A stretch of DNA of 20,646 bases from a virus (taxonomy: Duplodnaviria > Heunggongvirae > Uroviricota > Caudoviricetes): the IMG/VR virus record IMGVR_UViG_2700989509_000029, one strand, 5' to 3'. Made by a program: the position numbers. Each line of letters starts with the position of its first letter. The first letter of the stretch is position 1. Below are positions 1 to 3,000 of the stretch, one piece after another.

Positions 1-3000
1 TTAATCCCCCGTGGACACTGCGTGGACACTTACGCCACCTTTCAGCGGATTAAGGGCCACCGCATCCTGCAGGTAATCCGGTGCAAAATGCGCATATGCC
101 ATTGTTTGCTGAATGGTTGCGTGACCAAGAATCTTCTGAAGCGCAATAATGTTTCCTCCGTTCATCACAAAATGGCTGGCGAACGTATGCCGCAGCACAT
201 GTGCAGCCTGGCCTTTTGGTAAATCGGGCTTAACTCTTTTCAGCGCCAGGCAGAATTCCCGGTACTTCACCTCAAACAAGCCGCCTGTTTCTCTGGTTTT
301 GATCGCCTCACAAACTGCCTGCGAAATTGGCACTGTTCTCTTCCGGCCATTTTTGGTTTCAAGAAACGTTACACGGTTATGAACTATCTGTTCACCACGA
401 AGCTTACAAGCTTCACTCCAGCGCGCCCCTGTGCTTAAACACAAAAGCGCAACACGCCAGTAGTCGCCCTCCAGTGTATCGAGCAATAGCGCCACTTCCT
501 TCTGTGACAGGAACGCCATTTCTCGTGGAGATACATAAAGAATAGAAATTCCCCTTACTGGATGTTCTGCATCCCAAAGACCTATTTTTTTCAGCACGGT
601 AAACATTCCGGATAACCGATTCATGTACCTGTTAGCAGATGACGGTTTCAATCCTTCAGCTATCTTTTGAGAACGCCACGCGATAATTTTCAGCTTATCA
701 AGATCCACAGCCTGCATATCAGCGCCAAGCTCATTGATTATGTTGCGCAGTTGTTTTCGGTCTTCTTCCGCCTTACGCCTGTGCTGGCCGTGATACATCC
801 ACCACAACTCAAGCAAATCATTTAGCGTTCGACGATCACGGTAGCCCTGTATATATTCCCGCTTTTCAGCGTTCGCCATGATGTAGCGTTCAGTGGCCAC
901 CGCTACCGATTTTTTGTCAAATACCTTACGCACGCGCTTTTATACCGCCACACGCGCCCTGATTCTGGAGCGTTACCGCGATGCGGACACAACGGACAAG
1001 GGCGACCGCCGGGCGGACGCACTGGATATACAGACATCGGATTTGTGGCGCGATGTGAGCTGGGCCATCTCTGACATTCTGTGTCGCCCGCGAATCTTTG
1101 CGGAGTTGTGCTGATGAAAGTGAAGGCACTGGAAGGCGACACCGTGGATTCGCTCTGTTTCCGGTACTACGGCACGACGCAGGGCGTCACCGAAAAGGTG
1201 CTGGATGCCAACCCCGGACTCTGTCAGCAGGTATTTCTGGACGCCGGGCAGGAAGTGGAGATGCCGGAGCCGGAGAAGAAGAAACGAGAAATGATTCAGT
1301 TGTGGGGGGAGTAGCAGTGAGCACCATTCAAACAGGGATCACAGAGCAGGTTATTGCGTGGCTCTTTGACCACCTGCCAACGGTGTATGCAGTAGGCGCG
1401 GCGGTCAGCATTTCCGCGCTGATGAGTCTTTATGACGGACGAACACTGGTTCAGACCGTAACGGGATCGCTGGCGTGCGGCGTTCTTGCCATGGCCGTGG
1501 CCGGGTCGTTGCGCTTCTTCGGGTTTCCTGAAGATGCCGTGACGTTTATCGGCGCATCAATCGGTTTTATGGGTGCAGAGAAAGCACGCGACAAGGTTAT
1601 TGCGGCCTTTAATCGCAGGGTGAAGGAGAAGGACGAATGAGCAACACATTTAAATTCAGCAGCCGGAGCGAAAAGAATTTGCAGGGCGTAAATCCTGATC
1701 TGGTGAAAGTGACCCGACGGGCACTGGAAATTTCGGAAGTGGATTTTGGTATCACCGAAGGGTTGCGCAGCCGTTACCGCCAGAAGCAACTTGTGGCCAC
1801 AGGTAAGAGCCAGACCATGAACAGCCGCCACCTTACGGGACATGCCGTGGATGTTGTGGCTTATATCGGCAGCCAGGTGTCATGGGAATGGCCGCTGTAC
1901 GAAAAAATCGCAGCAGCATTCAGACAGGCCAGCCGGGAACTGAATATTCCGGTGGAATGGGGCGGCGACTGGAAGACCCTGAAAGACGGACCACATTTTC
2001 AGTTACCACACGGAGCCTATCCGGCATGAAGCTCTGGCCCACGCTGGGTGTCGCTTTCCTTCTGATTGCCGCATGGGGAACATCCATGCGTCTGTCATGG
2101 TCGCTTGGCCGGGAGAACGCCAGAAACGAAGCACAGGCCAGCACCCTGAAAAGTACCGTCGACACACTGAATATCATCAGTGCCGGGGTACAGGATATGC
2201 AGCAGGTGCTGGCGCAACTCCGCGTGGAAAATCAACAGCGAAATCAGGACGGAGAGGCCAGACGTGAACAGCTACGCAACGATATTGCAAAAGATGAATG
2301 CGCCCACGCTTTGCCTGACGCTCGTTTTACTGACAGGTTGCGCAGGCACGCAGAACGCGCCACGGCCAGCGCCGTCAGTCCGGCTTATACCGCAGACGCT
2401 GACCATTCCGGTAACGCCGCCCCCCTTCCCTGACCCTCCCACATGGGGAAATCTCGGTATATGGGGCGACCGCCTTCTGGATGCACTGGAAACCTGTAAC
2501 GCGGATAAACGGGCCATTGAATTACTGGAACAGCGCAGGCTGCAACGACTGAACAACGAGGACAACAACCATGCTGAAAACTGATTCCCTGCGTGAAGCC
2601 ATGACCCGTTCATGCCGATGGTGTCAGGCCAACCCGGAAAAATTCACCATTTTCGTGGAGAGCGGCAACATTGAAACGACCGGAGAAACCCCATCGTTTG
2701 TTTACCGCTATCAGATGGTGATGTTTGTCATGGATTACGCCGGGGAGCTGGACGACCTCACGCTGCCGCTGCTGGCGTGGTTATCCGAAAATCAGCCACA
2801 GTTGTTGCTCAACCCTGAGCGTAATCAGGACATCAAATTTTCCGCCGTTATCAATGACGATGACAGCGCCGATCTCCTGTTTACGCTCCCCCTGCGGGAA
2901 CGCGTTCGCATCACGCGCAGCAGTCAGGGCACACCGCAGGCAGAACACCTGCCGGAGCCAAAACCCCGCCTGCCATCTTCCGAAGGCGACTGGTCGCATG

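What the first reader, a model, noticed from the sequence alone, without database searches (positions are those of the whole stretch)
934..1116. Deletion junction: integrase abuts a 3' gene remnant with no upstream promoter space
Seen in sequence: the int ORF begins with GTG at 933 and has an in-frame TAA three codons upstream; the opposite strand carries an open frame that ends in the TGATG coupling junction with X but has no start context. Inference: the deletion end points lie here, int may be N-terminally shortened, and the late genes from X to G have lost their native promoter.
Basis: partly seen in the sequence, partly recalled or inferred. Interest (0 to 1): 0.4.

Follow-up and report, generated by a model that had tools for sequence, protein, structure and literature searches.

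The report
Deletion scar in P2-like prophage
This is the scar of a roughly 16.6-kb deletion inside a P2-family prophage of E. coli, which cut off the start of the integrase gene and removed the immunity, replication and head genes and one late promoter region; it is ordinary prophage decay.

Summary
On the minus strand an integrase ORF starts at GTG 933, with an in-frame TAA at 942-940. On the plus strand a gpL reading frame ends in TGATG (1112-1116), overlapping the start of tail gene X.

Comparison with intact relatives puts the breakpoint at 939/940:
- int homology runs 1-940, at 100% identity to many E. coli prophages.
- L-X homology starts at 939.
- The two sides overlap by two bases (TT).

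Measured against the prophage of strain RM14723, 16,573 bp are missing:
- int codons 1-21;
- the repressor, Pc and cox;
- the replication genes;
- Q, P, O, N, M and the P/O late-activator box;
- L codons 1-107.

Int loses 24 of its 334 residues, including the residues proposed to specify arm-site recognition. The remnant is the last 57 codons of gpL.

The identical junction occurs in at least 24 contigs from other E. coli assemblies, and the exact truncated protein is recorded on 61 contigs. It is therefore a real, inherited deletion and not an assembly artefact. Five of the 24 carriers have further lesions in tail genes, which points to decay rather than domestication.

Interest is low.

The parts
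1..933 (-). 5'-truncated integrase gene (int'). The ORF runs from GTG 933 and corresponds to codons 25-334 of the intact 334-aa Int. Homologous int DNA continues to 940.
   Evidence: 100% identity over 1-940 to many E. coli; Pfam Int_N and Phage_integrase; alignment: 24 N-terminal residues absent.
11..29 (.). Two P2-type arm repeats (GTGGACAC at 11-18 and 22-29) overlapping the 3' end of int. This corresponds to the P' arm of P2.
   Evidence: The consensus tgTGGaCa comes from PMC3448106. P2 has its P' arm in the same position.
939..940 (.). Deletion junction. The two bases TT are shared by both parental sequences (microhomology).
   Evidence: three-way alignment; int side identical through 940; L side identical from 939.
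940..942 (-). TAA stop codon in the int frame, created by the junction. It replaces codon 22 (GGA) of intact int.
941..1114 (+). 3' remnant of head-completion gene L: codons 108-164 plus the TGA stop. It has no start codon of its own.
   Evidence: (Pfam Phage_GPL, profile positions 83-138 of 139, E = 2.7e-14).
893..1114 (+). Chimeric mechanical ORF of 73 codons, made of antisense int fused in frame to the L remnant. It has no ribosome-binding site.
1112..1116 (+). TGATG overlap of the L stop codon with the X start codon, as in P2. X has its own GGAG at 1102-1105.
   Evidence: P2: L ends at 6509 and X starts at 6509.
1114..8727 (+). Uninterrupted block of X, holin, M15 endolysin, LysB, LysC, R, S, V, W, J, I, H and G. 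It now lacks any recognisable late-activator box upstream.
   Evidence: ungapped 8,560-bp match, 99.0% identity, to the DEC9B prophage; gene ends agree; no box.
15153..15174 (+). Retained late-activator (Ogr-type) box GTTCT-N12-ACAAC, in the divergent FI/D intergenic region.
   Evidence: same position in RM14723 and DEC9B. It is analogous to the single P2 activator site that serves pO and pP.
17660..17920 (+). ogr, the late-gene activator, intact.
   Evidence: Pfam Ogr_Delta.
19530..19549 (.). attR core TTTTCATCAACAAGGATTTT. The attL copy lies 183-202 nt to the left of the window start, inside the 5' end of pdxB.

Best explanation
The region is the scar of an internal deletion, most simply a single event, in a P88-type (Xuanwuvirus, P2 family) prophage. 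The prophage is integrated at the 5' end of pdxB, between pdxB and flk, in an E. coli clone.

How it arose. Illegitimate recombination at a 2-bp TT microhomology joined int codon 22 to L codon 107. The deleted DNA is about 16.6 kb when measured on RM14723.

What was lost:
- the first 21 int codons;
- the C-type repressor with Pc and Pe, and cox;
- the replication genes;
- a cargo slot;
- portal, terminase, scaffold, capsid and small terminase (Q, P, O, N, M);
- the P/O late-promoter region;
- two thirds of L.

Consequences.
- Shown: int has lost its native start codon, and a TAA stop in the int frame sits at the junction. It has also lost 24 N-terminal residues, which include the residues proposed to discriminate arm-site type.
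- Shown: the L remnant is a 57-codon tail with no start codon.
- Inferred: the element cannot excise, replicate or build heads.
- Inferred: int' is at best weakly expressed and cannot carry out arm-dependent recombination.
- Inferred: X-S, and in this lineage probably V-G as well, are cut off from the Ogr-dependent pO promoter. The lysis and baseplate/fibre genes would then be silent, while FI-U and D keep their activator box and ogr is intact.

The scar is inherited vertically in a young clone, in which the remaining tail genes are already picking up further lesions.
For: Breakpoint mapping:
- int side identical 1-940.
- L side identical from 939.
- 16,573 bp missing relative to RM14723, whose annotation lists the lost genes.

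Int truncation:
- Alignment with the intact relatives and with P2 Int.
- Other listed cluster members are 334 aa, except one 42-aa fragment marked partial.
- The N-terminal domain binds the arm sites. The proposed discriminator residues, which I map to P2 Y11, D14 and R16, fall inside the missing 24 residues (PMC3448106).

gpL remnant:
- Pfam Phage_GPL, profile positions 83-138 of 139.

Operon logic:
- The P2 record gives the composition of the O operon, one activator site shared by pO and pP, and Pc upstream of C-int.
- PMC3931495 describes four Ogr-dependent late promoters in P2.
- The box GTTCT-N12-ACAAC is present at P/O in intact relatives and lies in the deleted interval.
- None lies upstream of X-G in the window.

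Not an artefact:
- The identical 27-mer junction is present in all five carrier loci, which come from five separate assemblies.
- 24 contigs were read, and the exact protein is recorded on 61 contigs.

Decay:
- Carriers differ from the window by about 1 SNP per 10.9 kb.
- 5 of 24 carry a secondary deletion or frameshift in T, H or R-H.
Against: - No transcription data exist for this region, so loss of expression of int' and of X-G is inferred from sequence only.
- The activator-box consensus was derived here from only two or three sites per phage.
- A weaker box, or a sigma-70 promoter inside S or inside antisense int, cannot be excluded. An 8/10 box-like match lies at 972-993 inside the L remnant, and a 9/12 sigma-70-like site at 829-857. 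Both are at chance level.
- The immediate intact ancestor was not found. The best tail match, DEC9B, carries a different int and sits at a different att site. The deleted length (roughly 14-17 kb) and the single-step origin are therefore estimates.
- A 2-bp overlap is only weak evidence for microhomology-mediated joining.
Confidence: 0.93

Rival explanations
1. The headless remnant is a functional, domesticated R-type tailocin. The deletion would have left exactly the lysis cassette, a complete contractile tail module and ogr, and the clone would use these to make killing particles.
For: - All genes from X to G, U to FI, D and ogr are open and full length in the window.
- 19 of the 24 carrier contigs keep this state over the first 10.9 kb of the element, the only part compared.
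- P2-type tails are the ancestors of R-type pyocins and of the Dickeya tailocin (titles and abstracts).
Against: - The only activator box that could drive X-G was deleted, and none remains upstream.
- The carriers are almost identical to each other, so intact ORFs say nothing about selection.
- Even so, 5 of 24 already carry inactivating lesions in T, H or R-H.
- There is no sign of a new regulator or promoter at the junction.
Confidence: 0.05
2. The junction is an assembly or chimera artefact, not a real deletion.
For: The junction 27-mer is absent from 5,426 complete RefSeq E. coli genomes, from the GTDB species representatives and from JGI metagenome contigs.
Against: - The same junction is present in five carrier loci from five different assemblies.
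- The truncated protein occurs on 24 contigs that were read and on 61 contigs in all, one of them 5.4 Mb long.
- The join has no repeat that could mislead an assembler, and it preserves gene order and orientation.
Confidence: 0.01
3. The arrangement arose in several steps or by recombination between two different P2-like prophages, rather than by one internal deletion.
For: - The tail half is closest (99.0%) to a DEC9B prophage that has another int and another att site, while int and the right end are of the pdxB-flk type.
- No complete genome was found that carries the exact undeleted ancestor.
Against: - P2-like phages are mosaic in any case.
- Both ends of the element are the matching attL and attR of one insertion.
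- The junction is a clean two-base overlap with no filler DNA.
- One deletion is the most economical account.
Confidence: 0.05
4. GTG 933 is the native start of this integrase, and the region 934-1113 is normal.
For: NCBI pipelines annotate the 310-aa product as an ordinary tyrosine recombinase.
Against: - Intact relatives continue for 65 more coding bases, and their N-termini align with P2 Int residue for residue.
- 939-1114 is the interior and the 3' end of gene L.
Confidence: 0.005

Closest known systems
Intact P88-type (Xuanwuvirus, Peduoviridae) prophages at pdxB-flk, e.g. E. coli RM14723 (NZ_CP027103.1), and phage P88_4B11 (LR595891.1)
   Same: - int DNA is 100% (RM14723) and 99.9% (P88_4B11) identical over window 1-940.
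- RM14723 has the same gene order from L onward and the same pdxB and flk flanks.
- RM14723 has a perfect activator box in the same FI/D position.
   Different: - The window lacks about 16.6 kb between int codon 22 and L codon 107.
- The cargo genes differ: a PIN_12 protein instead of DUF2971, and an acetyltransferase instead of an invertible fibre segment with its recombinase.
Bacteriophage P2 (AF063097.1)
   Same: - Same family.
- The L stop codon overlaps the X start codon.
- X and the lysis genes, R and S lie in the O operon.
- One activator site serves the divergent pO and pP promoters.
- int is transcribed from Pc through C.
- The P' arm overlaps the 3' end of int.
- The Int N-terminus aligns.
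   Different: - P2 has a separate pV promoter after the orf30 insertion, and its F operon runs in the same direction as D.
- In this lineage S abuts V, the FI-U block is inverted relative to D, and only two perfect boxes exist.
- DNA identity to P2 is low: about 70% over part of int.
Cryptic P2-family remnants and other defective prophages of E. coli formed by internal deletion
   Same: - An integrated phage is locked in place by loss of excision, immunity, replication and head functions.
- Further piecemeal decay is seen in descendants.
- The general phenomenon is described for the prophage pool of E. coli O157 (PMC2669165, title and abstract).
   Different: This remnant is young. Its int fragment is still 100% identical to intact copies, and it still holds a complete tail and lysis module.
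R-type tailocins derived from P2-like tails (pyocin R2, the Dickeya dadantii P2-like tailocin)
   Same: The gene content is the same: tail and lysis genes without head or replication genes.
   Different: - The block containing the lysis, baseplate and fibre genes has no promoter or regulator.
- There is no evidence of selection to keep the genes.
- 5 of 24 carriers are already damaged.

Membership tests
P2-family (P88-type) prophage | Syntenic late genes (X, lysis genes, R, S, V, W, J, I, H, G, sheath, tube, E, T, U, D) followed by ogr, between matching att sites | tested here: met
   (Pfam Phage_tail_X, Phage_GPD, Ogr_Delta). The att core repeat is shown.
P2-family (P88-type) prophage | Complete genome with immunity switch, replication genes and head genes (C, cox, A, Q, P, O, N, M, L) | tested here: not met
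   All of these lie in the 16,573-bp interval that is absent from the window.
Heterobivalent tyrosine integrase (P2 Int type) | Catalytic domain with the conserved R, K, H-x-x-R, H and Y residues, plus a core-binding domain | tested here: met
   Pfam Phage_integrase and Int_N are both matched. R171, K194, H245, R248, H271 and Y280 (numbering of the truncated protein) are invariant in the alignment with P2 Int. Assigning these to the catalytic positions rests on general knowledge of the family.
Heterobivalent tyrosine integrase (P2 Int type) | Complete N-terminal arm-binding domain, including the proposed arm-type discriminator residues (my mapping: P2 Y11, D14, R16) | tested here: not met
   Residues 1-24 are absent. 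The role of the domain and the discriminator positions are taken from PMC3448106.
gpL head completion protein (Pfam PF05926) | Full-length domain with its own start codon | tested here: not met
   Only profile positions 83-138 of 139 are present, and there is no start codon.
Ogr-dependent late operon | Activator box (TGT-N12-ACA type; in this lineage GTT[C/G]T-N12-ACAAC) about 55 bp upstream of the transcription start | tested here: not met
   No box with two or fewer mismatches lies in a promoter position upstream of X or V. The P/O box of relatives lies in the deleted DNA. The feature is met only for the FI/D region, at 15153-15174.
R-type tailocin | Tail and lysis genes without head genes | tested here: met
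R-type tailocin | Own regulatory input driving the whole cluster, and maintenance of intact genes across carriers | tested here: not met
   There is no promoter or activator box for X-G. 5 of 24 carriers have inactivating lesions.
R-type tailocin | Production of bactericidal tail particles | not testable with these tools
   This needs induction, electron microscopy and killing assays.

The most novel reading that the evidence does not exclude
The deletion has produced, in one step, an incipient tailocin locus in an E. coli clone. It would be a headless, non-excisable P2-type element that still makes contractile tails and lyses a subpopulation. Expression would come from a cryptic or junction-created promoter (for example TTGTCA 914-919, an 18-nt spacer, then TTTTAT 938-943), or from Ogr acting on weak boxes.
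Probability: 0.04. Interest if true: 0.5.

Novelty: new member of a known kind. Interest (0 to 1): 0.15.

Why it matters
The practical value is mainly for annotation.
- Public pipelines call the 310-aa product an ordinary tyrosine recombinase, and prophage finders would score this 20-kb element as a phage with an integrase.
- In fact the element is locked in place and has no head genes, no immunity switch and no replication genes, and has probably lost expression of its lysis and baseplate genes.
- The exact junction 27-mer is a clean clonal marker for the E. coli lineage that carries it.

Biologically it is a textbook snapshot of early prophage decay: one large deletion, followed within a near-identical clone by further independent lesions. 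It opens no long-standing question.

Tried and rejected
Searches for the junction:
- Exact scans for the junction 27-mer in the GTDB species representatives and in JGI metagenome contigs gave nothing. The complete RefSeq E. coli set has no genome spanning the junction.
- I first read this as a unique event. One search corrected that: the junction is common in draft assemblies.

Late-promoter motif:
- The literal P2 consensus TGT-N12-ACA gave 3 hits against 5.2 expected, none in a promoter position. It was replaced by the lineage's own box GTTCT-N12-ACAAC, taken from the P/O region of RM14723.
- The ACAACAAAAG tail of the box was not informative.

Possible new promoters at the junction:
- Plus strand: TTGTCA at 914-919, 18 nt, then TTTTAT. 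This lacks the A at position 2 of the -10 hexamer.
- Minus strand: TATAAA at 944-939, with no usable -35 hexamer.
- Both were rejected as too weak. The consensus scan finds nothing there, and overall it finds no more sites than in shuffled sequence.

Other points:
- The 7-bp repeat CACGCGC at 931 and 951 was considered as the recombination substrate. It was rejected because both copies survive in the product.
- The perfect box inside gene T (10723-10744) is not conserved in relatives.
- One search failed and included a meaningless third sequence. Both were redone.
- They are in fact bundled into multi-record files.

Full report
**What the window is**

The window runs from the stop codon of a phage integrase (position 1, minus strand) to the stop codon of the host gene flk (20646).
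- Everything from 939 to about 19549 is a P2-family prophage of the P88/Xuanwuvirus type.
- From the junction onward the genes are X, holin, M15 endolysin, LysB, LysC, R, S, V, W, J, I, H, G and an acetyltransferase cargo gene. An inverted block follows (U, T, E, FII, FI), and then D, a PIN-domain cargo gene, ogr, hok, com and a DNA methyltransferase.
- The attR core TTTTCATCAACAAGGATTTT lies at 19530-19549. Its attL copy lies 183-202 nt to the left of the window start, inside the 5' end of pdxB.

**Checking the observation**

- The minus-strand ORF 1..933 starts at GTG 933 and is preceded, two sense codons further upstream, by TAA at 942-940.
- The plus-strand frame 893..1114 ends in TGA 1112-1114, which overlaps the ATG of X at 1114. 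Its only start codon is a GTG inside antisense int, with no ribosome-binding site.

**Locating the breakpoint**

- A search with window 1-1000 matches "phage integrase" genes of many complete E. coli genomes at 100% identity, but only over 1-940. It matches phage P88_4B11 at 99.9% over the same span.
- A search with window 700-1400 matches head-completion gene L and tail gene X of P88-type phages, but only from window 939 onward.
- No complete RefSeq E. coli genome spans both halves.
- A three-way alignment with the intact prophage of strain RM14723 shows the window following the int side up to 940 and the L side from 939. The two sides share only the bases TT (sequences; arithmetic).
- Relative to RM14723, 16,573 bp are missing.

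**What was deleted**

According to the RM14723 annotation, the missing DNA holds:
- the first 65 nt of int;
- the HTH repressor and the Cox-family gene;
- about ten small early genes;
- the replication endonuclease;
- a Dam methylase and an AAA ATPase (cargo genes);
- portal, large terminase, scaffold, major capsid and small terminase;
- the first 106 codons of L, plus one base of codon 107.

**The two truncated genes**

*Integrase.*
- Intact Int is 334 aa. In the window, codon 22 has become the TAA stop, and the first usable start codon is the GTG at codon 25.
- The best case is therefore a 310-aa protein lacking MSIKKLEDGRYLLDIRPNGRKGKR. This segment aligns residue for residue with the N-terminus of P2 Int.
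- In P2-like integrases the N-terminal domain recognises the arm sites. The proposed arm-type discriminators correspond to P2 Y11, D14 and R16 (my mapping onto the P2 sequence), and known int-defective point mutations fall in this domain (PMC3448106).
- All of these residues lie within the missing 24. The P2-type arm repeats themselves are still present, at 11-29 and at about 19465-19483.
- The core-binding and catalytic domains and the conserved active-site residues are retained.
- In P2, int is transcribed from Pc through C. Both Pc and C are deleted here. No promoter-like site is found on the minus strand in 1-4400, and there is no good Shine-Dalgarno sequence before the GTG (read).

*gpL remnant.*
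- Positions 941-1114 encode the last 57 residues of gpL (Pfam Phage_GPL, profile positions 83-138 of 139, E = 2.7e-14).

**The late promoters**

- The P2 record describes one activator-binding site serving the divergent promoters pO and pP. It lists an O operon made up of O, N, M, L, X, Y, K, lysA, lysB, R and S, and separate pV and pF promoters (see also PMC3931495).
- In RM14723 the P/O intergenic region carries the dyad GTTCT-N12-ACAAC. This box lies inside the deleted interval.
- In the window a perfect copy of the box occurs in the divergent FI/D intergenic region, at 15153-15174. A second perfect copy lies inside gene T, but it is not conserved in relatives.
- In the intact relatives RM14723 and DEC9B the only perfect boxes are at P/O and FI/D.
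- The stop codon of S overlaps a GTG of V that has a GGAGG 7 nt upstream, and the annotated ATG of V is only 11 nt further on. No box with two or fewer mismatches lies between 2118 and 4493.
- From this I infer that this lineage has two bidirectional late-promoter regions rather than the four promoters of P2, so that O through G would form one transcription unit. The deletion would then leave X-G without a native promoter, while FI-U and D keep theirs and ogr is intact. This is an inference from sequence and has not been shown experimentally.

**Is the junction real, and how common is it?**

- Looking up the exact 310-aa product in the large assembly collection found it in 101 index blocks.
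- 24 contigs were read. In every one of the ten loci returned by the two look-ups, int' sits 180 nt from X and next to pdxB.
- The five carrier loci available when the 27-mer was searched, from five different assemblies, all contain the identical junction.
- The exact protein is recorded on 61 contigs, the longest 5.4 Mb, all named E. coli. Every other listed member of its 90% cluster is 334 aa, apart from one 42-aa fragment marked partial.
- The junction is therefore a real, inherited deletion in a clone, not an assembly artefact and not a unique event.

**Decay or domestication?**

- Carriers differ from the window by about one SNP in 10.9 kb, so the clone is young.
- Among the 24 contigs read:
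  - 19 have the window's structure over the first 10.9 kb of the element, the only part compared;
  - 2 have a 1,370-bp deletion inside T (window 10430-11799);
  - 1 has a 1-bp indel in H (near 6935);
  - 2 have a 4.9-kb deletion from R to H (2901-7822).
- This pattern is what relaxed selection predicts. It argues against the one attractive alternative, that the headless tail-plus-lysis remnant is a working tailocin.

**Mechanism**

- A clean join with a 2-bp overlap and no filler DNA fits illegitimate recombination, either replication slippage or end joining.
- The nearby 7-bp repeat CACGCGC (931 and 951) was not the crossover point, because both copies survive.
- A one-step origin is the most economical reading. 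It cannot be proven, because the immediate undeleted ancestor was not found. The closest tail module, in DEC9B at 99.0%, belongs to a prophage with a different int at a different att site.

**Verdict**

There are two refinements: the breakpoint is a single point at 939/940, and the claim about V-G rests on a lineage-specific inference. The feature is an ordinary, though cleanly resolved, example of prophage decay.

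Noticed in passing
L013 10934-11135 (left of the window start); window 19530-19650: The prophage is inserted in the 5' end of pdxB. The att core covers pdxB codons 2-8. In lysogens pdxB is called with a phage-derived TTG start and a GGAG in front of it, giving 385 aa. The native GTG start, and presumably the native promoter, are stranded at attR next to flk. The deletion removed Pc, the only known promoter on the int/pdxB strand, and no consensus promoter was found in the 159-nt int-pdxB spacer. What drives pdxB in carriers is an open question.
   Followed up: partly
window 15153-15174; L002 15522-15543; L005 15933-15954; L007 15728-15749 and 33213-33234: Intact P88-type prophages have only two perfect GTTCT-N12-ACAAC dyads, one in the divergent P/O region and one in the divergent FI/D region. 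The FI-U block is inverted relative to P2. This suggests two bidirectional late-promoter regions instead of the four promoters of P2.
   Followed up: partly
window 10723-10744 (minus strand): A third perfect activator-type box lies inside the tape-measure gene T. About 0.04 such matches are expected by chance. It is absent at this position in RM14723 and DEC9B, so it is probably fortuitous.
   Followed up: partly
L015, L016 and L017 (window coordinates 10430-11799, about 6935, and 2901-7822): Some carriers of the same junction have secondary lesions: a 1,370-bp deletion in T, a 1-bp indel in tail-fibre gene H, and a 4.9-kb deletion from R to H.
   Followed up: yes
window 16505-17575: The slot between D and ogr holds variable cargo. 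In the window it is a 356-aa PIN_12-domain protein with no PADLOC match. RM14723 has a DUF2971 protein there, and DEC9B has a SIR2 protein plus an ATP-binding protein. This looks like a defence or cargo hotspot.
   Followed up: partly
window 8771-9343 (minus strand): A hexapeptide-repeat serine O-acetyltransferase cargo gene sits between G and U. RM14723 has an invertible alternative tail-fibre segment and a recombinase at the same place.
   Followed up: no
window 8492-8690: A full-length match to Rfam RF02111 (IS009, 190 bits) lies inside the tail-fibre assembly gene G. It most likely reflects that this RNA family was defined on a prophage tfa-like sequence.
   Followed up: no
window 18112-19421: A hok toxin gene, a Com-family regulator gene and an N6/N4 DNA methyltransferase (type II or orphan methyltransferase by PADLOC) lie between ogr and attR. 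They are followed by a GC-rich hairpin at 19426-19447.
   Followed up: no
window 931-937 and 951-957: The 7-bp direct repeat CACGCGC flanks the junction, one copy coming from each parental side. It was not used as the crossover point.
   Followed up: yes
window 1-933: NCBI records name the truncated 310-aa product simply 'tyrosine-type recombinase/integrase'. The loss of the N-terminus is therefore invisible in the annotation.
   Followed up: yes
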